DNA from: Prorocentrum cordatum
Lineage: Eukaryota
DNA: 64,000 nt
Reading direction: 5' to 3'
NCBI GenBank assembly: GCA_963575745.1
Contig: CAUYUJ010000219.1
Location: forward strand, 1 to 64,000
Of this stretch, positions 21,356 through 46,471 are shown in pieces (within the stretch, counting starts at the first letter, position 1; each line of letters starts with the position of its first letter). Made by a program: the position numbers and the translations under genes. Under the pieces are notes generated by a model. The model was not told where the DNA came from. It saw nothing but the letters and a program-made list of their open reading frames with translations, and did not search any database.

Positions 21356-21645
21356 CGCTGGGCCACCGCCATGACATCTACCACCCCTAGTCATCATCAC
21401 CCTCTTGGCCGCCCCCGAGATCTGGTCCTGAGGGGAACATGGCCCTGGACCCTGAGCGAATCGGCGGAAATCGGCAGACTCGTAGGCCTCCGTTGAGAAA
21501 CCGGAATCCAAATTGAAACCCGGCGGTATAGAAATCGAAGCCATCGAGTTCGAATCGAACGTCGGATCGTCGATGGCCCCTCTTGGCCGATCGTGAGGCC
21601 CCCCAAGATACCCGAAGGGGGCTCCCCGCTGGCCAGGCCGCCCCA

Positions 21646-22187
21646 GGCAAGAGGCTCGGCACCGCGCTAGCCATCGGCGAGGGGCTCCCAGGGCTCGGCC
21701 AAGGGCCCCTGGAGGCCGAAAGCTGCCAAAGGCCCGGCGCCATGAGCTTTGTGCACGACGCGAGGCCCCCTGGATTTCCCCCACCTGGTTGCCCGAATAG
21801 AGGCCTCCTGAATGGGGTCCGAATAGATGGGGTAGGAGGATCGCGCCGCATCGCCAATGCATCGGCGACTCATCGCCGACGTCGGCGACGCATCGGCGAC
21901 GTCGGCGTGGAGAAAATCAGGCTACGCATCGAGCCGCATCGTCGATACATCGGCGATGCGGCCCAACGTCGATGCATCGGCGATGCGGCTCGATCCTCCG
22001 ACTCCATCCACTCGGACCCCATTCAGGAGGCCTTTATTCGGGCAACCAGGGGGGGCGATCCCGGGGGCCTCGCGTCGTGCGCAGAACTCAGGGCGCCGGG
22101 TCTTTGGCAGCTTTCGGTCTCCAGGGGCCCTTGGCCGAGCCCTGGAAGCCCCTCGCCGATGGCCAGCGCGGTGCCGAGCCTCTTGCC
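21646..22187. mobile_element. ~540-bp imperfect palindrome: outer foldback arms around an AGGCCT-ended MITE (21821-22033)
   Basis: ggcaagaggctcggcaccgcgctagccatcggcgaggggct... mirrors ...agcccctcgccgatggccagcgcggtgccgagcctcttgcc. Inner TIR is aggcctcctgaatggggtccga / tcggaccccattcaggaggcct. Confidence 0.85.
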
Positions 22188-22393
22188 GAGGCCTAGACCG
22201 CAGGGGGCTCCCCGCTGGCCAGGCCGCCCCTGGCAAGAGCCTCGGCCGGCCGCGAGGGTGCAGCAGGGCAAGGGGCTCCTCGGCCTCGCACCGTCGGCGC
22301 GGTCAGCGGCGCCGGCAGGCGGGGCACTGAGGGTTGTGCTTGGCGACCCAACGCCAGGTGAGGTTGATGCGCGCGCCCTCGTGGGCGGGCATT

Positions 22394-22892
22394 TCCTCCT
22401 CCTCCTCCTCCTCCTCCTCCTCTCCTCCTCCTCCGCCTCCTCCCTCCTCCTCCTCCTCCTCCTCCTCCTCCTCCTCCTCCTCCTCCTCCTCCTCCTCCCT
22501 CCTCCTCCTCCTCCTCCTCCTCCTCCTCCTCCTCCCTCCTCCTCCTCCTCCTCCTCCTCCTCTCCTCCTCCTCCTCCTCCTCCTCCTCCTCCTCCTCTCC
22601 TCCTCCTCCTCCTCCTCCCTCCTCCTCCTCCTCCTCCTCCTCCTCCTCCTCCTCCTCCTCCTCCTCCTCCTCCTCCTCCTCCTCTCCTCCTCCTCCTCCT
22701 CCTCCTCCTCCTCCATCCTCCTCCTCCTCCTCCTCCTCCTCCTCCTCCTCCTCCTCCTCCTCCTCCTCCTCCTCCTCCTCCTCCTCCTCCTCCTCCTCCT
22801 CCTCCTCCTCCTCCTCCTCCTCCTCCTCCTCCTCCTCCTCCTCCTCCTCCTCCTCCTCCTCCTCCTCCTCCTCCTCCTCCTCCTCCTCCTCC
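22394..22892. repeat. (CCT)n tract flanking the LINE-A 5' end
   Basis: Direct reading. Confidence 0.95.
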
Positions 22893-22965
22893 TAGCCGTT
22901 CTGGGGCGAGCCAGGTGCTCGCTCTTGCGGGTGCAATCTTCAGAGCGGCGTGCCCCCGCGGGCCG

Positions 22966-24101
22966 ATGGCGAATGGAGTTGCAGGTGGCACGCGCGGTGC
23001 CAGCCAGGGTGGCGACCCCTGGACGTGCCGCTCGTGTGCTGATGGCTACGCCAACATGGCATGGCGCACGGAGCGCAGGCTCTGCAAGGCGGCGAGGCCG
23101 CCACGCGGCGCTGGCACGATCGGCGAGGCCATCAAGAAGGCCAAGGCGAAGGCCAAGGCCAAGGGGAAGGAGAAGGTCGTGGCGAAGCGCGTGCGCTTCG
23201 CCTCGGACGTGCCTGGGCCTGCCGCCGCCGCGGCCACGCCGGCGCCGTGGGCGCAGGGCGCGGCCAAGCGGGAGGCGGAGGAGCGGCCCAGCGGCAGCGG
23301 CGGCAAGGACGAGGAGGTTCGCCAGGCCCTCCTCCGCCACTTTGGCCCCAGGGAAGGCTGGTCGGCGGCCCTGGTCCAGGACTTCGGGGCCCTGGTGCCT
23401 GTGGTGGACGCGCCGCCGCCAGCGAAGCCCTTGGCAGGGAGGCGAAGATCAAGGGCCAGGTCAGCCGTGCCGAGGCAGCGCTGGTGGCCGTCCAGGAGGA
23501 GCAGGCGGCCGTCGCGGTCCGCGTGGCGGAGCAGGCGGACGTCCTCCAGAAGCGGCGCGACCAGCTGGAGGAGGTGGCCGAGGCTGCGCGCGCGAGGAAG
23601 CGGGCTGACCTGGAGCAGCACAAGGGGCCGTCGCCCATGGAGGTGGGCGAGCCTGTGGAGGCCGAGGACGGCCTGGGCAAGGTGCTGTTCAAGGGCCTCG
23701 AGGGCCTCGAGGCGGAGCGGGAGCGGGTCCTCTTGCTCGGGGAGGAGGGCGGCGCCCTGCTCGCGATGGCCGCGGAGGCCCGCAGCCTCGTGGAGAAGCT
23801 CGCCGCCGCCGACGCCCGCGCTCGTGAGGCAGCGGCGGCCGAGCGGGCCCGCGCTGCTGCAGCCGCGGCCGAGCGGGCCGCCGCGGCGCAGGAGGCCGCC
23901 CCCGCGGCTGATGGCAGTGATGACGGCGCTGATGGTTCTCCTGGGGACCGCAAGCGCGTCGGCGACCTCGACCTCGGCCCCGAGCTCGTCGGGCTCGACG
24001 CCGTGTTCGACGAGGTGGGCATGGAGGACGAGCAGCAGCGCGCAGCCTGGCGCGCAGCGCTGGCCAAGCGCCAGCGGGTGGCAGGCCCCGCCTCTGGGTA
24101 G
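22966..24101 (+). CDS. LINE-A ORF1 (RanBP2-like zinc finger + coiled coil), apparent 1-nt frameshift near 23435-23441
   Basis: ATG at 22966; WTCRSCADGYANMAWRTERRLCKAARP resembles a W-x-C-x2-C..N..C finger. Protein-like coiled-coil sequence (EAKIKGQVSRAEAALVAVQEEQ...) continues in the 23061-24101 frame to TAG. Confidence 0.7.
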
Positions 24102-24120
24102 CCGCCCGCGGGCGGCTAAC

Positions 24121-27100
24121 GTGGTGGAGCTGGTATCGGCCAACACCACCGCGTGGGGCTCGGCGCAGGCGCTGGTCGAGTGGCTGCACGACGACGTGGG
24201 GCGGCTGCCTGCGGTGCTCTGCCTCCAAGAGCATCGCCTCAAGGGCAAGCAGGCGATGGCCCGCGCGGCGGGCTGGACGCAGGCGCGCGGCTTCAGCTGG
24301 CATGGCCAGGCAGCGCTGCCGACGGGCTCAGGGCCGTTGGAGAGCTCGGGCGGAGTGGCCGTGGCCACGCTGCGGCCGTCGGCGGCCGCCGCCGCGCCAG
24401 GGCTCCCTGCCCATCGGTTCCAGGTGTGTGAGGTGAACCTGAGGTTCAGGGAGCCGTGCCGCGTCATCTCGGCCTACTGCATCACGAAGATAGGCAGGGC
24501 GAAGGAGAACATCGGGCTCCTGGCAGCGCTGCACGAGTTCGTGGGGCAGCTGGAGTCGCCGTGGGTCGTGATGGGCGACTGGAACATGGAGCCCGTGGAC
24601 GTCCGCGAGTGGGCGCGCAGCGCAGGCGGTGCGCTCGTGTGCCCAGAGGGGCCGACCTGCGGCTCGAAGGTCTTCGACTTCGCGGTGGTCAGCAGGGTCC
24701 TCACGGGCTTTGTGGACGTGGCCGAGGTGCTGCTGAGGGCGCCGACGAAGGACCACGTGCCGTTCAAGGTGGTGCTCCGCGGCGTAGCGCCAGATGCGAA
24801 GGTGCAGCGGCCGCTCTTCCCTGCCGCCTTCCCGCTGCCGCTGCCGCCGCCAGCGCGGCCAGCGCCGCTCGAGCGTGCCTTCTCGGCCTGGAGGCCTGAA
24901 GGAAGGCAGTCGATCGAGGAGGGCTGCCAGGAGTGGTTCGAGGCGGTCGAGGCCTACCTGATCGACCTCTACGAGATCGCGCCGCCCAGCCGCTGGGAGG
25001 GGCGCGCGGGCGGGCTTCGCACGCAGAGGGTCGTGATGGAGGTAGCCTGGAAGCAGGACTGCAAGAGGAGCGTCGGCGCTGCCTGCAGGCGCTGGATGTC
25101 GTTCGCGGCGGCATGCGCCCGCTGGCGCGCGCTGCAGGAGGCGGCGACTGGAGGGCGCTGTTGGGCGCCGCTGCGCAAGCAGCAGGAGGTTCTGATGGCG
25201 TTCGAGCTCGAGTGGCCAGAGGAGGGCCCGCTGGCAGGGCTGTCGGTGGCCCGCGTGATGAGCCTGCTCAGCTCCTCCTCGTGCCAGCTGACGGTGCAGT
25301 TCGTCCAGGAAGAGGCGAGACGGCGCTGGAGGCTGGACAAGCAGCGGGAGGCCGCGGAGTGGCGCGCCTGGGCCCAGGCCGCGGCCACCGAGAAGGGCGG
25401 CTCGGCGGCCTACCGCTTCATCAAGCAGGTCGCGGTGGTGCCCACGGAGGTGCTCGCGGGCGTGGACGGCAGCGACGACCTGCGCATGCCCGTCGCGGGC
25501 GAGGCTGCAGTGGCGGCGCTGCTGGAGGCGTGGCAGCCGCTCTGGGTCAAGCCGTCGCGGGCAGGCGAGGCAGCGCCTGAGAACTGGGACATCCAGGAGT
25601 CGGTGTTGCCGCCGCTGGAGCTTGAGGACCTCGAGCGCGTCCTGGGCACCTACCGCGAGGGGTGTGGCCTTGGGTGGGATAGGCTCCACCCGAAGCGGCT
25701 GCTGCGCCTCCCGCGGACCTATAGGCAGCGCTTCCCGGAGCTCCTCATGGCCTGGGAGCGGAAGCCTTCGCGGGAAGCGCTGTGGCAGCTGATCGTGGTG
25801 TTCATCCCCAAGGCCACTGGCGGCCAGCGGCCGATCGGCCTCACGGCCATCTGGCTGAGGGTCTGGAGCAGGCTGCGGCAGCCGCTGGTGGCCCGCTGGG
25901 AGGCCTCGCTGGAGAACCCTGCCTTCTGGGGCACGTCGGAGAGCCCGTGCGAGCGCGCGGGGGTGGTGCACAACCTCCTGGCGGCCTTCGCGCGCAGCAG
26001 AGGCCTCTCGGCGGTCACGGGCGTCACCGACCTGGCGAAGTTCTACGAGCACGTCAGCCACGAGGAGCTGCGCGTGCAGGCGGCCGCCGCGGAGTTCCCG
26101 CTCGCGCTGCTGCAGTGCTACTGCGTGTCGTACCGCACGCAGCGCCGCGTGTCCTGGCGCGGCTCGGTCTCCAAGCCGTTCGAGGCGAACGGCACCATCG
26201 TGGCGGGCTGCAGCGGCGCGGTCGAGCTGGCCAAGCTGCTGGTGCACACCCTCTTCGTGAAGATCGAGCGAGAGAACCCTGTGGTGCGCCTGCAGAATGT
26301 CGTCGACGACGCGCTGCTGCAGGCGGTCGGCGGCAGGGCGCAGGTGGCGCAGCAGCTCCCCAGGGCCATGGCGGCCCTCACGGAGGGCCTGGTCGCCAAG
26401 GGGCTGGTCATCTCGCAGGCGAAGACGGGCTACCTGGCGAACAGCGAGGACCTCGGCGACGAGCTGGACGGCCGCTGGGCGCACGGGCCGCTGGCCCGCT
26501 GGACTGGCGCCCGGTGCCTCGGCGGCGGCGCCGCTGATGGGCGCTGGAGGCGCGTGCGCGAGCAGGACGCTCGGCTTGGCCGCGCGGCGGAGGTCAGCGC
26601 GAGGGCGCGCCTGTTGCGCAGCGCAGGTGCGCAGGTGGGCCACATCCAGAGAGGCAGCCCCAGGGCCACTGCCATCTGGGGCTCCGCGGTGACGGGCCTC
26701 GCCTGTGGGAAGCTGCATGGCCTGCGGATCGCCGCCATGCGTGCGGAAGGCAGGTTGCCCATGGGCGCCAGCGTCGGCCTGCGGCTGCGGGCGATGCGCG
26801 GCGCGGCCTACCGCGACCCCTTCGTGGTGCATGCGGTGGAGGTGGCGCGCTCCTGGGGCATGACGCTGGAGACGGGCCTGCCCAGCGCCGCGGTGGTGCA
26901 GGAGTGCTGGCTTGGGGCGCAAGGCCTGCTCGACCTTTGCCGCCCCTGGGGGCAGTGCCGCGACCCTGCGCAGGCGTGCGTGCTGGCGCTGAGGCGGGTC
27001 GGCATCGAGATGGTGGCCTTCAATACCGTCATTGGCTGGCAGGCGCGTGTCCTCTCGCTGGAGTTCTACTCGCCTGGCATGCCGGCGCAGGCGGCGCGGG

Positions 27101-28971
27101 AGTCGGCGATGCTGGCCTCGGACGTGCTCGCGCTGAAGCGGCTGCGGGGGCCAGGAGCCTGGGCGTGGCCAGTGCACTGGAAGGGGCTCGAGCGCCTCCT
27201 CCACGCGCGCCGCCGCCCCGAGGGGCAGGCCGACGCCGAGGCCGCCGAGGGCGCAGGCTGCCAGGAGCCCGCGCCGCCGCAGCCGCACTGGCAGGCCCGC
27301 CACAGGCGAGCGCTCGCAGCGGTCCTCGGCGGCCCCCACTGGCCGCAGGAGCGCCTCTGGAAGGAGGGCAAGGCGCGCGACGGCCTGCGCCGCCTCTGCG
27401 GAGGCCGCGGCACGCTGTGGCACAGGGCCTTCGAGTGCGAGGCCTGGCAGATGCTGCGGCGGGATGCGCGCTCGCGGGACCTGCTGGAGGGGGCGCGGCT
27501 GGTGGCGCAGCGCGGGGACGCTGCGGCGGAGCTCTTCGCGCGGGCGCTGTGCCCCGACCCCGCCCTGGCCTTCCCCGCGACGGCCGACGCCGCGCTCGCG
27601 GCCCCGCGCTGGTTCGGAGTGCCGCCTGGCTCGAAGTTCGAGGGCAGGGTCTTCGTGGACGGCAGCGCCAGGTTTCCTGCGCTGCGCGGGGCCCGCCGCG
27701 CTGGCTGGGCGGTCGTGCAGATCGGCCTCAGCGGGGAGGTCATTGGCGGGATGCACGGCATCGTCCCGCGGGCGCACGGGCCCAAGCAGGAGGCCAGGGA
27801 CGGCGAGGACTACGCGTTCCACATGCTGGCCCAGTTCTGGTTGCCGTCGGCCGATGGCTCGGGCCTCGAGGTCTTCTGCGACTGCGCGGGCACGGTCGGC
27901 TTGGCGCTCTCGCAGGGCAAGGCCCTCGCGCCACTGCAGGCGCGCCGCCACCTCTGGCAGGAATGGTGGGCTGGGCCAGGCCCGACGGCCACGGTGCGGA
28001 AGGTCAAGGCGCACAAGGAGCTCTCGGCAGCTGCCACCTGGGAGGAGGAGCTCCTGATCAGGGGCAACAGGGCAGCTGACCTGTGGGCCAAGCGAGGCGC
28101 GGCGCTGTGGCAAATCTACGAGGAGAAGGTATGGTTCCTCCAGGCGTGTGCCTGGCGCGTGGAGGAGCTCGGGCGCTGGGTCGGCGAGCTGGCCGCCACC
28201 ATGGTGGACCGAGAGCAGCTGGACTCAGACGGGGTCGTGGGCACGGCCGACCTCGTCTACGACATCCCGCAGGAGGCGCTTGACGCGGCGGAGCAGGCCG
28301 ACGCGGAGGTGGCGGCGCTGGCGCTCGAGGCCGACCTCGAGCTCGGCCAGACGCCTGGCGCTGCTGCTGGGGCTGCTGCTGGAGAGGAGCATGACCAGGC
28401 GCCCGCCGCTGCCGCGGCTGCCGAGCTGGCGGAGGCGGCTGTGGCCGCTCCCGAGCTGAAGGCCGCGATTGCAGGGGCTGGAGTGGCGCGGGAGGTTCGT
28501 GGGCACTGCATCGTCGTCTCGCGCCTCGAGAATGGAGATGGTGCCGTGGCCTGGTGCATGAAGTGTGGTTGCCGATTCTGGAAGCGGTCCCCTCCTGCTG
28601 GGACAGGCCTGCTGGGCAGCTGCAAGGGACGGCCAGCCCCATGAGAAAGGGCGGCGGAGGCGCGGCGGCTCCTGATGCGCCTCCAGGAGCCCAAGAGCAA
28701 GGCCAGGCTCTCGGCCCCGCAGCCGCCCACGCTGGAGGAGCAGGCGCGGCTCGCGGCGGTGCTCCGCGACGGCGCAGGCGGCGAGGCAGGCGCAGGCGCT
28801 CCCGCTGGTGCAGGGAGGCCGCCGCGCTGGGGGCTGCGGCCCGTCGTGGCGGACGCCTGGCAGGCGGCGGAGCTCCACGGCTTCGCCTCGCCCACCGCTG
28901 CGGCCCGCTGGGCGAGGGCTCGCGTGGCGGCGGGCAAGGAGTCGCCCTTCGGCGACGGTGGCGCGGACTGA
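24121..28971 (+). CDS. LINE-A ORF2: AP endonuclease - reverse transcriptase - RNase H - C-terminal Cys/His domain (one in-frame TGA at 28642-28644)
   Basis: APE: VSANTT, CLQEH, SSGGVAV, VMGDWN, FDFAVVS, DHVP. RT: FIPKATGGQRPIGL, DLAKFYEHV, IVAGCSGA, NVVDD. RNH: VFVDGS, RDGEDYA, VFCDC, KVKAH, GNRAADLWAKRGA. C-terminus: WCMKCG. The same frame stays open past the TGA to 28971. Confidence 0.92.
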
Positions 28972-37949: not shown

Positions 37950-38427
37950 TTCTCCTCCTCCTCCTCCTCCTCCTCCTCCTCCTCCTCCTCCTCCTCCTCC
38001 TCCTCCTCCTCTTCCTCCTCTGCCGTACTCGTCTTCGTCAACCCTCATCTTCATAGCATCGTATCATCACCCTGGCCATCGTCGCCGCCATCACAACCGT
38101 CATAATCCGCAACAACATTCACTACCACGTCGTCATCGTTGTCGTCGCACCCATCATCGCTGTCACTACCGTTATCGTTAGCACCGCCATCGTCATCTCC
38201 AACAACAGCATCGTCATCATCATTATCATCATCATCACCATCATCACCATTATCATCATTATCATCATCATCATCATCAACAACAACAATAGCAGCATCA
38301 ACATCACCATCAACATCATCGTCACCACCACCACCATCATCGTCATCATCAGCATCAGGATCATCAGCATCATCATTTGCAGCAGCAGTATCATCATCAG
38401 CTACAGCGGGCTCATCATCATCATCAA

Positions 38428-38459
<32 letters not shown>

Positions 38460-38920
38460 GCATCATCATCATCGTCATCATAGTCATCATCATCATCAGC
38501 ATCATCATCAACATCATCCTTATCATCATCCGCAGCATCGTCATCGCCATCACCATCATTAACATCATCAGACCACCACCACCACCATCACCATCACCGT
38601 CATCATCACAATAATCAGCACCAACACCATCATCACCAGCATCATCGTGGTCATCATCATCATCCTTACCAGCATCACCATCATCATGATCAGCATCAGC
38701 ATCATCATCACCGTCATCAGCATTACCATCACCGTCAGCATCATCATGAGCAGCATCAGCATCGTCATCAGCAGCACAATCCTCTGCATCATAATCATCA
38801 TCATCATCATCATCATCAGCAGCATCATCGTCATCCTCATCATCATCAACAACCCTCCCTACCTCCACCTCCCCCTCCCCCATTCGCCTCCTCCTCCTCC
38901 TCCTCTTCCTCCATCCCTCC
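37950..38920. repeat. (CCT)n and degenerate (CAT)n microsatellites
   Basis: Direct reading. Confidence 0.9.
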
Positions 38921-39879
38921 CCCTTCGAAAGAACCTGTCGCAACCACAAACATGTCGGTAGCGGCGTTTCGCCTGAGACTTCCTCGTCACGTATGATCCT
39001 GAAGTTTGAAATATGCAACACGTTCAAGGATGGAGAGCGGGTGGTTTCAACTAGAGGTCGCCTTAGCGCCGCGCACATTTGTTTAAAAGTTCGTAACATT
39101 ATCACGGATGGAGGGCGGCTCCTTGTGAAAATGTGGCCACGGATTGCCTTAGCGCCGCGCGCTGTCGCCTTAAGATGCACAGCAGCGTTAGGGATGGAAG
39201 ATGGATCTCGCCTCAGCGCCGCACACATTCGCCCCACAGAGCGCACCAGTTTCAAATATCCGTGTGGTCGATGTCACATGAACGGTGTTATGGCACAATT
39301 TAGGATGGTCAGGACGCAACAGTAGCGTGGATTCGCTGTGTCGATGTCCCAGTACTGGTGTTATGGCACGATTTTCGGACTGTCATGACGCAGCGATCAC
39401 GTTGATCCACGGCGCTGAAGTCCCAGGAACGGTGTTTTTGCACGGTTGGGGATTCTCGGACGGTTGGGCCACTTCCCACAATGAAAACAGATTCTTCTAG
39501 GGACCTGTGAAGAGGGTTCTTGGAGGGAGGGATAATTGCATCACTGTTGATGCGTCTTCAGTTCAACTGGTCCTCCAACTCCTCCTCCTGCTCCTGCTCT
39601 TTTTCCTCCTCCTCCTCCTCCTCCTCCTCCTCCTCCTCCTCCTGCTTCACCAGTTTCACCAAATGCCAAGGATCCGCAGTGCCAGAGGCGGCGCAGAACC
39701 TGGGCAAAAGAGAGAGAGAGAGAAAGAGAGATAGAGAAAGAGAGAGGGAACAAGTCAAGCGCGATGCAGCTCCCCCGCCCAGGCCTCCGCCGAAAGGACC
39801 CGAAGTCTTCCGCCGGTGGAAGCCCAAGCGGGGAAACTAACGCCCCTGTCAAGCTTCAGCGAGAGCACAGGCCTGGCCT

Positions 39880-40680: not shown

Positions 40681-41075
40681 CCCGAGGAGTAGGAGGAGGA
40701 GGAGGAGGAGGCGGAGGCGGAGGCGGAGGCGGAGGCGGAGCTGGAGGAGGCGGAGGCGGCGGAGGCGGAGGAGGCGGAAGAGGAGGAGGAGGAGGAAGAG
40801 GAGGAGGAGAAGGCGGAGGAGGAGGAGGAGGAGGACGGGGAGGAGGAGGAGGAAGAGCAGCGGAGAGCAGCGGCAGGACGTCGCGTCGGCCAGGCCAACT
40901 AGACGCAGCACAGGCGGCCAGGGGGCCGCAGCCTCAGGGGAGGCCAGTGATGCCGATCACGTCGACGGACGCGAAGGGCGGCGCGCTGGGGCCAGACCGC
41001 CGCGCAGCGCCTTGCGGCGAGCCGCTGGGGCCAGAACGCCACGCAGCGGCTGCCCGTGCCAGGAGAGGCCGACCT

Positions 41076-44000
41076 TCAACCACTTCTCCGTCGCCTCCTG
41101 CGTCCCGCATTCCACGGCACCGAAGGCGCTCTGAGCGGGCCAATGGGCGGTGGCTGCCCTTCCCGCCGCAGCTCGGCTAGCCACGACCGCAGGCACACGT
41201 AGTCGTAGCGCCGCATGCAGTCCGACACGATCCTCTGCGACCGCGTCAGCGTGTGGCGCCACCTGTAGTAGGCCCGCCTCGCGGGCATGCCAGTCCCCCA
41301 GGCCCGCTCGCAGATCTCCACGGCCATCTCCTCGGCCGTCCTCCCACGCGCCCGCAGCCTGGTGGCGAAGCGCGGCTGGGACAGGATCTGCGTGACGTAG
41401 CCGACGCAGTGGTCGAGCCACTCGCTGTAGCACTCCATCGTCTCGCCGACCTCGGGAGCCTGGGTCCAGTACCGCACCCATCCAGCGACCTGCAGCTCAA
41501 GCCTGGGCGCGACGCTGCGCCTCGGCTGCGCTGGCTCAGGCCGAGCCACCGCAACTCTGCCAGCACTCAGGGCGGGGCCGCACACACGGTCGGCACTTGC
41601 AGGTCCCCTGCCACCCCTGGTGCTGGCCATGCACATGCCGGCGCGGTCCGCGTCGCTTCCTGGGCTCAGGGCGGGGCCGCACTCACGCACGCACATTGCA
41701 GGTCCCCTGCCACCCCTGGCCCAGGCCGTAATCCGTCGCCGCTCGGGGTGGGTGCTGGTGCTCTGGGCGGGGCCGCACTCAGGACCGCAGACTGCAGGTC
41801 CCCTGCCACCCCTGGCACCAGCCGTAGCTGCACGTGGACACGCCTCCCCAGAAGCCAGCTGCGGCTGCCGCTGGTCCTCCTCAGGCGACGCCGCTCCCAG
41901 AGACCCGCTGCCAGTGCCCAGGGCGGGGCCGCACACAGGACTGCACTTTGCAGGTCCCCTGCCACCCCTGGCGCTGGCCATACCCTTGCCGTCGCGGTCC
42001 TCGTCGCATCCTGGGCTCAGGGCGGGGCCGCACTCACGCACGCACATTGCAGGTCCCCTGCCACCCCTGGCCCAGGCCGTAGATCGTCGCCGCACGCAGT
42101 GGGCCTGGCTGCCGTCGCCGCCAGCGCCCATGGTGGGGCCGCACTCAGGGTCGCGGCTTGCAGGCCTCCTGCCACCCTTGTCACTGGCCATGCCTGGCAG
42201 CGCCCGCTGCGAGTTGTCAGACCTGCCAGCACTCAGGGCGGGGCCGCATTCTCGACCGCACTTTGCAGGTCCCCTGCCACCCCTGGTGCTGGCCATATCG
42301 GTAGCCGAGACCGGCTGCGGCGGGCTGCTCGTGTCCTGAGGGCTGGTCACGGCGCCCTTCTGGTGGTCCGTGGTCAGCGTCACCTCGTGTGCCAGGTCAC
42401 ACCTCAAGGGCGCAGGCAGCCGCGACGGCCCCGCCGCCAGACAGGCATCGACCACCCCCACGTCTGGGGCAGCTGGCGGCGGCTGGAACGTCACCAGTCC
42501 AGTGGTGCCCCCGTCGTGGCATTGGTGCGCTCCATAGGCCGAGGGCAAGCTGCCGTCGGCCATGTCTCCCTCATCACGCTGCACGCCGCTGGCGGCTGCT
42601 GGACCACGTTCGGCTAGCAGATGCTGCTGCCTTCGCTGCATCCGTTCCAGGAGCTCCTGCCGTCGCACCCGCCAAGCAGGCTTCTTGGTCTGGACTGCGT
42701 CAGAACCTCCAGCCCCTGCAGGCACCTCGCGCGTCTCGTGGTCCTGGCCAGGCCTGGTCGCCTCGCCCTGCTCCTTCTGCGCGTGCTTGCCGCTTGGCCG
42801 CTCTGCAGCGCCGTCGCCCCCAGAGGCCATGTCGCCCGCGGCCGCGCTGGCCGCTGCTGTGGCCCATGTCCTGGGGCCGTCTGGAACCTCGCCTGCACCT
42901 CCCCAAGTGAGCACCTTTCCTGTCTTGGGGTGCAGCCCTTGGCTGAGCTTCCTGAGCCGCGCCCTGAGGTTGGACAGGTAGGTGCGCTGGTTCTTGCCCT
43001 CGGCGCTGGGCGGGCCAGCGCAGGGCGCAGCCAGGGCCAGTGAGGAGCCTGTCGCCGCCCACGCCACACATACCTCGCAGTAGATGGTGGGCCCTGCACG
43101 CCTCAGCCTGTGCCCCTGCATCTCGATGGTAACGTCCCCTGAGCCCCAGGGGGCAGGCTCGGCTGGCCTGGGCCCCGCATCTTCGTGGCACGCCGCGCGC
43201 TCGATCGCCTGCATAGCGAACTCGCCCGCCTCCGAGACCACAATGGGCTGCGCGCCGACGTGCGCGATGATGGCCTCGGCCCGCAGCGCGGTGTACTGGC
43301 TGGCCACGCAAGCTGAACGCGCGAACTGCGTCCATGTGGGCCCCGTCTGCCCGCTGGTCTGCCTGCAGCAAGCGCGGCACAGCACCACCGCCGTCCCGTT
43401 CAGGCGAACCAGGGAGTGGCTGATCACAGTCGCCGCCTGCTCCTTGGGCACCTTTGGCGGGCGGGCTGTCTGCTCGGGCGCATCCCAGCGGCCTGCGTGC
43501 ATCGTCCTCTGCATCGCCCAGCCGACGTACTTTGCCAGGCTCTTGTAGTGTTGCAGCTCGATGTTGTAGAACTCCTCGTACACCTTCGACACAGTGTGCT
43601 GCATGGCTCCTTGCCGAGCGAACCAGTCGGCCCACATGTTGCCAGAGTACAGCAGCGGGTGGAGGCCTCGGTCCAAGTACGCATCCATGTCCTGATGCGC
43701 GGGGGTCCATCTCACTTCAGGCCGCGCTGGCTGGGCACGAATCCGTCTCCACACTGTGGCATGTGCCGCTCGCGCCTCCTCTAGCTCCTGCCCCCAGTGG
43801 CTGCATTCCTTCTCCATCGACAGAAGGTCGGTGAAGACGAACTCGAGCTGCGGCCCCGCGAGCCGCAATGCCTGCAGCAGCGCGTGCCTCTCCGCGCGCC
43901 CGACCGTCTGGAGCGGCCCTGGCAGCGCCCCGAACGCCGCCCGAACAGGCAGTCCCTGGAGGGAAAGCTGCACGAAGGCCCATCCGCAGCGCCTCAGCTC

Positions 44001-45951
44001 GGGCATGCTGGACGCGAAGCCTGAGCCATCGGTGAAGACGACGTTGCTGCAGGAAGCCGTGTCCGCCCCTTGGCTAGGCCAGCAGCCCCAGGACTTCACC
44101 TCGGCCTGCTCCGCGGCGGGCGGCACGAAAGGCGGCATGCAGGGCAAGCACATTTGGAAGTCGGCGCTCTCGAAGCTGCCGCCCTCCTGCAGGCCTTTGT
44201 CGCACATGAAGGTGCGGATGGCCTGCATCGGCTCGGGCGGCAGCTGCTCGTCCTGCTCCTCCTCTGTGAGCGGCTGCACGAGTACTTCGCAGCCGAAAAA
44301 TCTGTGCCCAGGCGAGTCGGACGGATGTCCGCAGGCCCTGCAATTCGGCGCCGCCGCCAGCCCAAGGTCGTGCTGGGCCTGTTGCGTCCAGGCCACCGTC
44401 GCCCAGTGGTGACGCAGGCTGGTGGCCGACGGGCCCTCCGCCAACGCCGCGCGCCCGTCGCCCACGCAGAGCCGCATGGCCCGCACCCAAGGCTTGACCT
44501 CGCCGTGCTGGCGGTAGTGCGCCGCGATCTGCCTCGCCTGCCAGCGTTGCACGCCGTCGGTCAGATGCATCCTGACGTCCTTCGGGCACGCGGTGAGGAG
44601 GTTGATCGCCGTGTCCTGGTCGGTGACCAGGGTCGTGCTGGAGTACATGTGCCATCCGATGCGCCAGAGCGTCAGCGTGACGGAGGCGATGGGACCGCGA
44701 GCCCCTGCCCACGACGGGCGCCCCACGAGCCGCTCCGTGACCTTGGCCCAGGCCCTGTGGAGCCTAGCCAGGGAGGTGCGTTGTTCCCAGATCCAGCTGG
44801 CGTATCGGCAAACGATGTCGCAGGTGGCGCCGTAGATGGGGTCGTACTCGCGCGCCTTCTGCGTGGCTAAATACACCGTGACGCTCGATGCACCTGGCCG
44901 AGCCCCTGCAAGCCTGCCAGCCTCGGCCCTCAGCACCTGCAGCGCATCGTCGGTGAGCCCTGACACCCCAGCCCCGTGCGCCGCGCTCGGCATGAGGCCC
45001 GTCTTCCACAGGCAGGTAGCGCGCCTGCCCACTGCCCCTTTGAAAGCTGCCAACTTGCCGCGCCGCTCCTTGAGCTGCCGCACCCGCTTTGCCGTCTGGA
45101 GCCTAGCGATTCTGCGCCCGCCCAGATCGTGCCCCAGGTTGCGGGCCCAGCGCATCTTGGTCAGCTTGCGGGCCGCCGCGTGTCGGGCACACTCGCGAGC
45201 AGCCGCGTCCGATGAGACCAAGTAGCCCGACTTGGTGGGCTGCACGACAATGCCTCGCTCCTGGGCGCCCTCGCGGAACCTGGTGGTGGCCGCCCACAGC
45301 ACGCCCAGTTGCGAGAGCCGCCTCCCGCGCCACTGCAAGGTGACGTCGTCGATGAGGGCCCTCGGGGTGACGCCTGCATCTCGCACCTGCTCGAGCAACC
45401 TGAACATGAGCAAGGTGACCATGGCACAGGCGTGAGTGCATCCTGCGAGCACGCCCTGATGTGACACGACCGCGTAGGACACCGAGCCGAAAGCTTGCAG
45501 CCGCCTCGGCTGCCTGTATAGCTCAATCACCATCCAGACCAACCGCAGCGGCATGCCCAGCAGCCGCGCCTCGATGAGTAGCCACTCGGGCTTAATCGTC
45601 TCAAAGAACTTCCAGGCGTCCAGCATGACGATTACGACGTGCTCGTCCAGGCAGTCCGATACCTCCGTCTCAAGGTTGAGGTCGAAGGCAGAGTCGGAGG
45701 AAGATCTGCCGCCGCCCATGCCCCAAATACTGGCATTGGGGTGCGCCGTCAGCCACGCCTTGGACGTCGAGGCACGAGCCCTCGACCACCATCGGATTAG
45801 CGAGTGCATCAGCGTGATCAGCCTGCAGCCGCCAGAGGCCTGGGGGATGCGGCACATAGCGTGCCACAGCCTTTCGCTGGGCCAAGCCCCCAGCGCCTCG
45901 CACTTCATGAAGAGCTGGCCGCAGGTGTAAACGCCGTCGTCCGTGAGAAAG
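41076..45951 (-). CDS. LINE-B ORF2 (partial): RT - zinc finger - RNase H - Cys/His repeats - RGG/CxxxC repeat tail
   Basis: RT: IPQASGGCRLITL, DAWKFFETI, GVLAGCTHA, ALIDD. CRACGHPSDSPGHRFFGC. RNH: VFTDGSG, QTVGRAERHA, VFTDL, WTPAH, GNMWADWFARQGA. LCRACC, YCEVC, then seven RGGRGPA-x-C-x3-CGPAL-type repeats. Confidence 0.92.
41559..42293. repeat. Array of seven ~69-bp hairpin units separated by variable spacers
   Basis: Units at 41559-41627, 41659-41725, 41754-41822, 41910-41978, 42010-42076, 42120-42188 and 42225-42293. Core cagggcggggccgca-N15-tgcaggtcccctgccacccctg. Confidence 0.92.
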
Positions 45952-46051
45952 NNNNNNNNNNNNNNNNNNNNNNNNNNNNNNNNNNNNNNNNNNNNNNNNN
46001 NNNNNNNNNNNNNNNNNNNNNNNNNNNNNNNNNNNNNNNNNNNNNNNNNNN
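45952..46051. other. Assembly gap (100 N)
   Basis: Run of n. Confidence 1.
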
Positions 46052-46224
46052 CTCCTCCTCCTCCTCCTCCTCCTCCTCCTCCTCCTCCTCCTCCTCCTCC
46101 TCCTCCTCCTCCTCCTCCAGGCCGCGATCGGCCATGACTGGGCGGCCGGGGGTCGATGCTTCCGCCCCTGGGCCGGCCCCTGCTGGCGTCGCCCAGGAGC
46201 CCGGCTCTGCGGGAGCTCACCCTT

Positions 46225-46471
46225 CCCTGACTCCAGATCCGCCCTACTTTGGCTTTTTTCCAACTTAAAATTGCGTCGGCAATCCACCTATAAGAGGTTG
46301 AAGAAGTAGGGCGGAAATTGCTGCACCCAACATAGAATAGGGCGGAAATCCACAGAAACAGCTACAGAAAAGTAGGGCGGAAATTGGCATCAGCGGGGCT
46401 TGAAAAGTAAGGCGGAAATTCCAAGCCCTACTTACGAATTTCCCCAAAGTAGGGCGGATCCGGAGTCAGGG
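46225..46471. mobile_element. MITE with 28-bp TIRs and internal tagggcggaaat repeats
   Basis: ccctgactccagatccgccctactttgg versus ccaaagtagggcggatccggagtcaggg. Confidence 0.85.

What the first reader, a model, noticed from the sequence alone, without database searches (positions are those of the whole stretch)
41559..42293. Seven co-varying hairpins with variable spacers encoded in-frame inside LINE-B ORF2
Seen: each ~69-bp unit has a nearly invariant core (cagggcggggccgca-N15-tgcaggtcccctgccacccctg) that can itself fold back. It is closed by a 7-8-bp outer stem whose sequence changes between units while pairing is kept: gccagcac/gtgctggc (x2), cctgggc/gcccagg (x2), gctggtgc/gcaccagc, gccagtgc/gcgctggc, gccagcgc/tcactggc. 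Unit periods are 99, 96, 156, 99, 111 and 105 nt, all multiples of 3, giving RGGRGPA-x-C-x3-CGPAL-type peptide repeats. Inference: compensatory change points to selection on an RNA or ssDNA structure on top of protein coding. Candidates are a multimerised RT-recognition or packaging signal, a small-RNA precursor array, an unknown ribozyme, or a mini-element that inserts in frame. LINE-A and LINE-D lack it.
Basis: partly seen in the sequence, partly recalled or inferred. Interest (0 to 1): 0.85.

Follow-up and report, generated by a model that had tools for sequence, protein, structure and literature searches.

The report
In-frame hairpin repeat array in dinoflagellate LINE
A jumping gene of a red-tide dinoflagellate carries, inside its protein-coding region, seven copies of a 69-base stem-loop whose core never changes, even at silent codon positions, and whose outer stem changes in matched pairs. 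This suggests a nucleic-acid signal written on top of the protein code, but its function is untested.

Summary
Seven 69-nt imperfect palindromes lie at 41559-42293. Their spacings are 99, 96, 156, 99, 111 and 105 nt. They sit in frame in the minus-strand ORF of a LINE; relatives carry RT and endonuclease domains and are named Prorocentrum cordatum by their source.

Three tests show a constraint at the nucleotide level beyond coding:
- Core third-codon positions vary in 1 of 13 columns, against 9 of 10 in the loop and outer stem.
- Synonymous recoding of each unit gives 10-12 Watson-Crick pairs out of 20, against 16-20 observed.
- Four outer-stem pairs change on both sides, and each links a first codon position to a third.

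The evidence is thin in other ways:
- The seven units are not independent. Units 1-3 and 4-6 are a higher-order duplicate, and units 2 and 5 are about 98% alike.
- All 11 other family copies that span the array carry the same seven units.
- The 40-53%-identical relatives lack the motif.
- The whole array does not fold better than shuffled sequence.
- No RNA data were available.

My best reading (0.45) is a multimerised cis-acting stem-loop of the LINE RNA or its first-strand cDNA, also translated as an RGG/Cys-rich linker. The main rival is a functionless palindromic repeat kept paired by template switching. The scan has noted hairpin arrays in other retroelements, one in this genome, but none on look-alike DNA.

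The parts
41076..46361 (-). Stop-to-stop ORF of the LINE ('LINE-B' ORF2). It is interrupted by a 100-N assembly gap at 45952-46051. The part read as protein P0001 is 41079-45929.
   Evidence: 97% identical to P0002 (1964 aa, precomputed Pfam PF00078 + PF03372; source name Prorocentrum cordatum). Pfam scan of P0001 itself: 0 families.
44583..45899 (-). RT-like part of the ORF (P0001 residues 11-449).
   Evidence: tblastn: 27% identity to the other LINE ORF of the window at 25738-27075. RT family assignment comes only from P0002's precomputed Pfam.
41545..42297 (.). The array: 7 tandem units in an 87-nt register. Spacers between hairpins are 30, 27, 87, 30, 42 and 36 nt, all multiples of 3. GC is 0.72.
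41559..41627 (.). Hairpin unit 1 (stem type A). 20 of 20 model pairs are Watson-Crick. The loop carries a +1/-1 indel pair relative to units 4 and 7.
41658..41726 (.). Hairpin unit 2 (stem type B, 7-bp outer stem). Its 87-nt register is 98% identical to that of unit 5.
41754..41822 (.). Hairpin unit 3 (stem type C). One inner pair is broken in this copy at 41764. Contigs of all four runs laid have the pairing letter.
41910..41978 (.). Hairpin unit 4 (type A variant). It has a T.G wobble on the + strand. One run's contig has T-A instead (41973 G>A).
42009..42077 (.). Hairpin unit 5 (type B).
42120..42188 (.). Hairpin unit 6, the most diverged unit (16 of 20 pairs here). Other copies have 42125 C>T and 42131 T>A. 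These restore one outer pair and turn one inner G-C pair into A-T.
42225..42293 (.). Hairpin unit 7 (type A, same stem as unit 1). Best single-unit fold, z = -3.49 on the + strand.
41172..41507 (-). Conserved C-terminal helical domain, translated right after the array. It is the only part of the tail with relatives outside the family.
   Evidence: phmmer over 1.84 billion representatives: 5 hits, all through this domain. Alignment A1. AlphaFold2 model: 5 helices, mean pLDDT 77.8. No Pfam family. No PDB fold match at E <= 0.001.

Best explanation
The array is a tandem, in-frame repeat of about 33 codons per unit. Its block structure is 1-2-3 / 4-5-6 / 7. It lies in the linker between the cysteine-rich tail and the conserved C-terminal helical domain of ORF2 of a young LINE family.

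Each unit is under two constraints.
(1) It must stay open and in frame, because it is translated as an RGG/Cys-rich, probably unstructured, linker.
(2) Its central 69 nt must keep a fixed 38-nt core sequence and a closed outer stem of 7-8 bp of any sequence.

I read constraint (2) as a cis-acting stem-loop. It would be recognised as single-stranded nucleic acid, either the sense LINE RNA or the first-strand cDNA left after the element's RNase H has acted. Seven copies would give avidity, in the manner of multimerised packaging or recruitment signals. The different outer stems of neighbouring units would keep each core folding locally instead of pairing with a neighbour's core.

Shown: the repeat, the frame, the silent-site constraint and the matched stem changes. 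Inferred: that selection (not a copying mechanism) keeps the stems paired, that the structure forms, who binds it and what it does.
For: (1) Frame. All six spacings and all six spacers are multiples of 3 despite indels of 15 and 51 nt between homologous spacers. Unit 1's loop carries a +1/-1 indel pair that restores frame and loop length.

(2) Core silent sites. Variable columns at third codon positions are 1 of 13 in the core, 4 of 5 in the loop and 5 of 5 in the outer stem. Fisher P = 0.0077 (core against loop) and 0.00011 (core against loop plus outer stem). Without unit 6, mean pairwise difference is 0.018 in the core, 0.39 in the loop, 0.33 in the outer stem and 0.49 in the flanks. The ORF has GC3 of 0.81, yet the core keeps the rare codons GGT (11% of Gly), GGA (14%), CCT (23%) and GCA (13%).

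(3) Recoding null. 20,000 synonymous recodings of each unit's peptide give a mean of 10.2-12.3 Watson-Crick pairs out of 20, against 16-20 observed. P <= 0.0006 for each of the 7 units.

(4) Stem changes. 95.7% of 140 cells pair, against 36-56% when slid. Four pairs change on both sides, in 9 cells. 0 of 500 shuffles reach the covariation score. All four pairs link a first codon position of one arm to a third position of the other, so silent sites track amino-acid changes across the stem (my reading). By my count on the per-pair table there are at least 7 separate both-sided changes, some between the homologous blocks.

(5) Other copies. The window copy's three stem mismatches (41764, 42125, 42131) are private. 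Contigs of other copies, and the proteins of 11 other copies, have the pairing letters. One of these makes an inner G-C pair into A-T.

(6) Imperfections kept. The bulge and the asymmetric internal loops are the same in all units. A process that merely perfects palindromes should have erased them.

(7) Copy number is fixed. 11 of 11 database gene models that span the array have 7 units at identical spacing.
Against: - Only the 13-bp outer helix shows any variation. The inner helices never vary, so nothing supports or refutes them, and single-unit folds disagree about them.
- Single-unit z-scores are modest: -1.4 to -3.5 on the + strand, 0.0 for unit 6, and -1.1 to -3.2 on the - strand.
- The whole 771-nt array is not more stable than shuffles: z = -1.36 as RNA (3 of 20 shuffles as good) and -0.81 as DNA (5 of 20). 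Its minimum-energy fold pairs cores of distant units.
- All the evidence comes from seven related units of one element. The shuffle control ignores relatedness, as the tool itself warns.
- The other family copies are near-identical and add little.
- 0 of 9 relatives at 40-53% identity carry the RGGRGP or CGP[AT] motifs. Some have a different 3-unit repeat at the same place. The signal is therefore not old or general.
- Gene models P0003 and P0004 hold only a degenerate unit 2, unit 1 and the C-terminal domain. If they are 5'-truncated copies, reverse transcription can start without the full array.
- Template switching is a published route to matched stem changes without selection on each change (PMC8794818, abstract read).
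- Within stem type A, the two-letter difference can arise from CpG decay in both arms, with even odds of staying paired (my inference).
- The strand is unresolved. There are 2 G.T wobbles on the + strand and none on the - strand. That is too few to decide, and they point away from the sense RNA.
Confidence: 0.45

Rival explanations
1. A functionless palindromic tandem repeat. A quasi-palindromic ~99-nt unit was amplified by slippage or unequal exchange in a tolerant linker. The arms are kept complementary by intra-strand template switching (hairpin-templated copying). The cores look invariant because of recent duplication or conversion. The only selection is for an open frame.
For: - The array has higher-order duplication, and units 2 and 5 are 98% alike. 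Recent duplication or conversion therefore does act here.
- Template switching can make multi-base matched changes in one event (PMC8794818, abstract).
- Stem type C differs from type A at three of four neighbouring positions, as one event could produce.
- The array is confined to one young family.
- The whole-array fold is not better than shuffles.
Against: - Units 1 and 7 share stems and core, yet their loops differ at about half of the positions. Units 1 and 4 are about 76% alike overall with an identical core. Conversion limited to blocks of 16 and 22 nt that skips a 15-nt loop between them is hard to picture.
- The bulge and the asymmetric internal loops were never 'perfected' in any unit.
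- Apart from helix-end positions, almost no unit is caught with mismatched arms in the family consensus.
Confidence: 0.25
2. The selected object is the peptide repeat: an RGG-type RNA-binding or Cys-containing metal-binding module of ORF2. The DNA dyad symmetry is a historical by-product, as in palindromic coding repeats.
For: - The frame is strictly kept.
- The peptide motif RGGRGPA...CGPAL is conserved in 6 of 7 units.
- Tandem coding repeats with dyad symmetry are described (PARCELs, PMC2996958, abstract read).
- Relatives have another Arg/Gly-rich repeat at the same place.
Against: - Silent sites of the core are invariant and use rare codons.
- Recoding the same peptides loses 8-9 of 20 pairs.
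- The first Cys is absent in 2 of 7 units. In unit 1 this is through an indel pair that keeps the DNA alike and changes the peptide.
- The outer-stem residues are free to vary.
Confidence: 0.12
3. Each 69-nt palindrome is a small mobile or intron-like element. It would be either an in-frame palindromic insert of the Rickettsia-palindromic-element kind, or a hairpin-ended 'introner' of the type reported in Amoebophrya and P. cordatum introns.
For: - P. cordatum introns are reported as enriched in elements with 8-20-nt inverted repeats at both ends and 3-5-nt direct repeats (PMC10666404, passages read; PMC7789003, passages read).
- 69 nt is a multiple of 3.
- 4-nt direct repeats straddle the boundaries of 5 of 7 units.
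Against: - The spacers are homologous between blocks, so whole units including spacers were duplicated rather than hairpins inserted.
- There is no copy outside the array in 64 kb, and 0 exact core matches in the metagenome or viral collections.
- Units 2 and 5 have no boundary direct repeat.
- Units 4 and 7 have no in-frame G[T/C/A]...AG boundaries at all, and no boundary pair is shared by all units.
- The boundary repeat in type A follows from the palindrome itself.
- The frame-restoring indel pair inside a loop argues that the hairpin is translated.
Confidence: 0.07
4. The hairpins are precursors of small RNAs or a self-cleaving RNA.
For: On the + strand RNAalifold gives up to 22 pairs per unit. 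Weak miRNA-model hits overlap the region.
Against: The Rfam hits are far below threshold: 20.8 bits against a gathering score of 70, and 22.3 against 93, both with E = 1.2. No ribozyme family matched. The stems are interrupted by a 7-nt internal loop.
Confidence: 0.04

Closest known systems
3'-tail stem-loop of stringent-type LINEs (eel UnaL2, zebrafish ZfL2), recognised by the element's own ORF2 protein. PMC1636434 and PMC4176376: search listing and abstract starts only.
   Same: A LINE-borne hairpin with a conserved unpaired or internal-loop feature and a stem whose pairing matters. It is presumed to be read in cis by the element's protein.
   Different: Those hairpins sit in the untranslated 3' tail as one copy. 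This one is translated and repeated seven times. It lies about 480-1,220 nt upstream of the stop codon, and no binding or retrotransposition test exists.
Multiple dispersed or multimerised packaging and recruitment hairpins of RNA viruses and retroelements. Recalled in general. The scan's note e1-7630127 reports a GNRA-hairpin array in a Copia-like element of this same genome.
   Same: Many copies of one small stem-loop inside coding RNA of a selfish element, with covarying stems.
   Different: Here the copies are a tandem array with a long fixed core and asymmetric internal loops, not dispersed tetraloop hairpins. The function is equally untested.
[quoted passage not shown]
   Same: Tandem or inserted coding sequence with dyad symmetry, kept in frame inside ORFs, and linked to mobile DNA.
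   Different: PARCELs are defined by a 25-residue amphipathic protein motif spread among many taxa. Rickettsia palindromic elements are dispersed in unrelated genes. This unit is found only in one LINE family, its peptide is Arg/Gly/Cys-rich, and its silent sites are constrained.
Template-switch-maintained hairpins (PMC8794818, abstract read).
   Same: Multi-base matched changes in a short stem.
   Different: That mechanism does not explain an invariant, imperfect core or rare-codon retention. It may still be how the matched changes arise.
Hairpin-ended introner elements of dinoflagellates (PMC7789003 and PMC10666404, passages read).
   Same: Inverted repeats of about 8-20 nt, varying in sequence, close a short element inside genes of the same organism group.
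   Different: There are no consistent splice boundaries or direct repeats. The unit appears to be translated. It has a conserved core, which those introners are not reported to have.

Membership tests
Stringent-type LINE 3'-tail recognition hairpin | Lies in the untranslated 3' tail at or near the element's 3' end | tested here: not met
   The units lie inside the ORF, 481-1,215 nt upstream of the stop codon at 41076-41078.
Stringent-type LINE 3'-tail recognition hairpin | Stem pairing conserved while the sequence varies; conserved loop or internal loop | tested here: met
   Four pairs change on both sides, 95.7% of cells pair, and the internal loops are invariant.
Stringent-type LINE 3'-tail recognition hairpin | Required for retrotransposition and bound by the cognate ORF2 protein | not testable with these tools
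   No assay was possible. Gene models holding only a degenerate unit 2, unit 1 and the C-terminal domain hint that the full array is not needed to start reverse transcription.
Coding minisatellite (variable-number tandem repeat in an ORF) | Head-to-tail units with a period that is a multiple of 3 | tested here: met
Coding minisatellite (variable-number tandem repeat in an ORF) | Copy number varies among copies or alleles | tested here: not met
   11 of 11 gene models spanning the array have 7 units at the same spacing. The contigs laid show no joints (table 5).
In-frame palindromic mini-element (Rickettsia-palindromic-element-like) | Dispersed copies in unrelated genes or sites | tested here: inconclusive
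   None elsewhere in the 64-kb window. 0 matches in the metagenome and viral collections. The organism's whole genome was not available.
Dinoflagellate hairpin-ended introner | Inverted repeats of 8-20 nt at both ends | tested here: met
   An outer stem of 7-8 bp plus 5 more pairs after a bulge.
Dinoflagellate hairpin-ended introner | Direct repeats of 3-5 nt at the boundaries and usable splice boundaries | tested here: not met
   4-nt boundary repeats occur in 5 of 7 units and none in units 2 and 5. Units 4 and 7 have no in-frame G[T/C/A]...AG pair.
Dinoflagellate hairpin-ended introner | Removed from the transcript | not testable with these tools
   No run on record as RNA was listed.
Any Rfam family (ribozymes, miRNA precursors and others) | Score at or above the family's gathering threshold | tested here: not met
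   The best hits are 22.3 bits against 93 and 20.8 against 70, both with E = 1.2.
LINE (non-LTR retrotransposon) as host of the array | RT and endonuclease domains in one ORF | tested here: met
   P0002, 97% identical, has precomputed PF00078 and PF03372. Pfam scan of the window's own truncated protein found nothing at E <= 0.1. Its RT-like part matches the other LINE of the window at 27% identity.

The most novel reading that the evidence does not exclude
The unit is a co-encoded RNA-peptide pair. Each stem-loop encodes the Arg/Gly/Cys-rich peptide that binds that same stem-loop, or the C-terminal domain translated just after it does. The nascent ORF2 protein would then clamp onto its own messenger seven times over. 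This would be a built-in device for cis-preference in a LINE that has no poly(A)-based one. Together with the GNRA-hairpin array noted in a Copia-like element of the same genome, it would point to a dinoflagellate habit of writing RNP-assembly signals into retroelement coding sequence.
Probability: 0.06. Interest if true: 0.9.

Novelty: new variant of a known kind. Interest (0 to 1): 0.5.

Why it matters
If the stem-loops are functional, this is a clear natural case of dense dual coding in a eukaryotic retrotransposon. One 69-nt module would be read both as protein and as a structured nucleic-acid signal, and multiplied in tandem. It would give a handle on how dinoflagellate LINEs recognise their own RNA. 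These LINEs make up much of very large genomes and have no genetic system.

If the stems are instead kept by template switching, the array is a compact natural example of that mechanism acting inside an ORF under frame selection.

Either way the finding is limited to one young family in one species.

Tried and rejected
- Whole-genome search: no genome is held for this window.
- Exact core search: 0 matches in metagenome contigs and 0 in viral contigs.
- Loci encoding relatives of the C-terminal domain. The first alignment was too loose. With a 3-sequence alignment, 406 pattern matches in metagenome contigs and 61 in viral contigs were found, but none was confirmed by tblastn. No DNA of relatives was obtained, so the sister family's repeat could not be tested for hairpins.
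- Word-indexed protein search with array plus C-terminal domain at 229-732 aa: nothing at E <= 0.01.
- Sequencing runs: no RNA holder listed.
- Logan contigs of 4 runs break at the repeated cores. They gave point variants but no joints and no copy-number information.
- Earlier findings by place near this window: none.
- Earlier findings by sequence, searched with the array and with the C-terminal domain: 0 look-alike windows.
- Fold of the C-terminal domain: helical, but no PDB match at E <= 0.001. It gave no clue to a nucleic-acid-binding role.
- The 19-bit model hit at 27398-27466 (-) in the other LINE lacks the inner helix. I treat it as chance.
- Two inverted repeats just beside the array (42352-42413 and 42431-42482) lack the core and are no more than expected in 72%-GC DNA by my rough estimate. 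I do not count them as extra units.
- Strand assignment from wobble pairs: 2 against 0, too few to use.
- Truncation of P0003 and P0004 at a hairpin base as a sign of reverse-transcriptase stalling: rejected. The alignment shows a degenerate unit 2 upstream of the apparent junction, and gene-model exon borders are not insertion borders.
Full report
**What is there.**
- Positions 41545-42297 hold seven head-to-tail units.
- The repeat finder puts them in one 87-nt register with start-to-start spacings of 99, 96, 156, 99, 111 and 105 nt. Tandem Repeats Finder sees the first 2.7 units as a 96-nt period.
- Each unit contains a 69-nt imperfect palindrome: 41559-41627, 41658-41726, 41754-41822, 41910-41978, 42009-42077, 42120-42188 and 42225-42293.
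- The spacers between hairpins are 30, 27, 87, 30, 42 and 36 nt.
- The 22-nt core box occurs 7 times at up to 3 mismatches (6 exact) and nowhere else in the 64-kb window; 0.01 are expected.
- The 15-nt box occurs 9 times at up to 2 mismatches, 7 of them here.
- A covariance model built from the seven units scores them at 85-100 bits. The next best hit scores 19 bits.

**Context.**
- The array lies in frame in a minus-strand stop-to-stop ORF, 41076-46361, broken by a 100-N gap at 45952-46051.
- Pfam finds nothing in the window's own 1617-residue protein.
- A 97%-identical database protein (P0002, 1964 aa, named Prorocentrum cordatum by its source) carries precomputed RT and endonuclease families.
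- The N-terminal part matches the window's other LINE ORF at 27% identity.
- That other LINE ends soon after its last match to this protein (ORF end 28644). This element has about 800 further residues: Cys-containing modules, a low-complexity linker, the array, and a C-terminal domain.
- The C-terminal domain is the only part of the tail with relatives beyond the family. There are 5 hits among 1.84 billion representatives, all through that domain.
- The domain models as five helices with mean pLDDT 77.8. It has no Pfam family and no PDB fold match at E <= 0.001.

**The units are not independent.**
- Units 1-2-3 with their spacers align to units 4-5-6 with theirs.
- Units 2 and 5 are 98% alike over 87 nt, whereas units 1 and 4 are about 76% alike. 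Recent duplication or conversion has therefore acted on at least one pair.
- There are three outer-stem types. Type A is in units 1, 4, 6 and 7, in two variants. Type B is in units 2 and 5. Type C is in unit 3.

**Is it translated?**
- All spacings are multiples of 3, although homologous spacers differ by 15 and 51 nt.
- Unit 1's loop differs from units 4 and 7 by a +1 and a -1 indel 9 nt apart. These restore the frame and change the peptide.
- That is what selection for an open frame produces.
- No in-frame G[T/C/A]...AG boundary pair is shared by the units, and units 4 and 7 have none. Reading the hairpins as short introns is therefore not supported.

**Is there a constraint beyond coding?** Three tests say yes.
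1. Third codon positions.
   - They vary in 1 of 13 core columns, 4 of 5 loop columns and 5 of 5 outer-stem columns.
   - Fisher P is 0.0077 for core against loop, and 0.00011 for core against loop plus outer stem.
   - Without unit 6, mean pairwise difference is 0.018 in the core, 0.39 in the loop, 0.33 in the outer stem and 0.49 in the flanks.
   - The ORF has GC3 of 0.81, yet the core keeps GGT, GGA, CCT and GCA in every unit but unit 6.
2. Synonymous recoding.
   - 20,000 recodings of each unit's peptide with the ORF's codon usage give 10.2-12.3 Watson-Crick pairs out of 20.
   - The real units have 16-20, with P <= 0.0006 for each.
3. Stem pairing.
   - On a 20-pair structure, 95.7% of 140 cells pair, against 36-56% when the 3' partner is slid by 1-3 columns.
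   - Four pairs change on both sides, in 9 cells. 0 of 500 shuffles reach the covariation score.
   - RNAalifold recovers the 8+5-bp helix on either strand.
   - The four covarying pairs all join a first codon position of one arm to a third position of the other. The second-to-second pairs hardly vary: 1 of 6 columns.
   - Silent sites therefore follow amino-acid changes across the stem.

**Other copies.**
- The 90% cluster of P0002 has 17 members, 15 of them listed.
- 11 of the 11 that span the array have seven units at identical spacing and are almost identical to each other.
- P0034 ends after the fifth unit, and three members do not reach the array.
- The window copy is the outlier.
- Contigs of four public runs carry the pairing letter at the window's three stem mismatches: 41764, 42125 and 42131.
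- At unit 6 this gives an inner pair that is A-T where the other units have G-C.
- One run has T-A where the window has T.G in unit 4. The same low-depth contig set has one stem-breaking change at 42176.
- The family's common form is thus better paired than this copy, as expected if this copy is decaying.

**What weakens the case.**
- Only the outer 13-bp helix varies. The inner helices are invariant and are predicted differently by different folds.
- Single-unit z-scores are modest, and 0.0 for unit 6.
- The whole array folds no better than shuffles (z = -1.36 as RNA, -0.81 as DNA). Its minimum-energy fold pairs cores of distant units.
- All the evidence comes from seven related units of one element.
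- Nine relatives at 40-53% identity (P0010-P0018) have 0 matches to the unit's peptide motifs.
- By eye, several of them, and P0007, carry a different three-unit Arg/Gly-rich repeat at the same place before the C-terminal domain. P0017 carries none.
- I could not obtain their DNA.
- No RNA run was listed.
- Rfam has nothing near threshold.

**Weighing the explanations.**
- A purely neutral history is excluded by the contrast between core and loop.
- A peptide-only constraint is excluded by the silent-site and recoding tests.
- What remains open is whether selection or hairpin-templated copying (template switching; PMC8794818, abstract) keeps the outer arms matched.
- Against copying alone: the bulge and the asymmetric internal loops persist unperfected in all seven units, and mismatched intermediates are nearly absent.
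- For copying: the clustered changes of stem type C, and the evidence of recent conversion.
- I therefore favour a cis-acting stem-loop under selection in the master lineage, at 0.45.
- It would be read as sense RNA or as first-strand cDNA by a protein of the element. The different outer stems would keep neighbouring cores folding locally.
- That last point, and any binding partner, are inference.

**Comparison with known systems.**
- The array works most like the recognition hairpins of stringent-type LINEs, and like multimerised packaging signals.
- It is not a member of the first class, because it is translated, multimerised and far from the 3' end.
- It shares dyad-symmetric coding repeats with PARCELs (PMC2996958, abstract).
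- It shares hairpin ends with dinoflagellate introners (PMC7789003 and PMC10666404, passages). It fails their other features.

**Earlier notes of this scan.**
- The scan has noted hairpin arrays in other retroelements, one of them in this genome.
- None is on look-alike DNA.
- I did not check those notes.

Noticed in passing
window 41172-41507 (-): The domain translated just after the array is a conserved five-helix domain with no Pfam family and no PDB fold match. Relatives at 36-53% identity occur in P. cordatum gene models and in unnamed ENA proteins. It may be an undescribed C-terminal domain of a dinoflagellate LINE clade.
   Followed up: partly
proteins P0007, P0011, P0016 (and one unit in P0010); no DNA held: The 44-49%-identical sister family has, at the same place before the C-terminal domain, three units of a different Arg/Gly-rich repeat (read by eye as TATRG-S/A-P ... 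GGRT). It may be a diverged homologue of the hairpin unit.
   Followed up: partly
proteins P0003, P0004 (two different contigs): Gene models join the body of another LINE-like protein to a degenerate unit 2, unit 1 and the C-terminal domain of this family. That body has an N-terminal Cys-rich region, a coiled coil and an endonuclease-like part. Each model lies on its own contig, and each is 93-96% identical to the window's tail. This could be a chimeric element or a nested 5'-truncated insertion.
   Followed up: partly
window 40684-40857: A 174-nt (GAGGAG)n / (GAGGAGGAG)n microsatellite lies about 220 nt beyond the ORF's stop codon on the LINE's 3' side. It may mark the element's tail.
   Followed up: no
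window 41079-41110 against the P0002 C-terminus: After '...GPLRAPS' the window's frame and P0002 diverge. P0002's continuation matches another frame of the window (ORF 40957-41496, minus strand). This copy therefore has a frameshift near the ORF's end, or the gene model splices there.
   Followed up: no
window 21532-28644 (+): A second, distantly related LINE ORF of 2370 codons, 27-28% identical in two blocks. It ends soon after the second block and lacks the long tail, the array and the C-terminal domain.
   Followed up: partly
window 38051-39000: All frames read as long low-complexity runs (Asp-rich, His-rich, Ile/Ser-rich). This is a simple-sequence tract between elements.
   Followed up: no
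window 42352-42413 and 42431-42482: Two further inverted repeats (14 nt at 86%, 10 nt at 100%, loops of 34 and 32 nt) lie directly beside the array. They lack the core and are probably chance in this GC-rich DNA.
   Followed up: partly
window 41547-41553 (table 7): Contigs of one run match the C-terminal-domain side and then continue with unrelated sequence just before unit 1. Diverged contigs (11-13 differences per ~100 nt) cover the domain region only. These are possibly relatives or truncated copies that lack the array.
   Followed up: no
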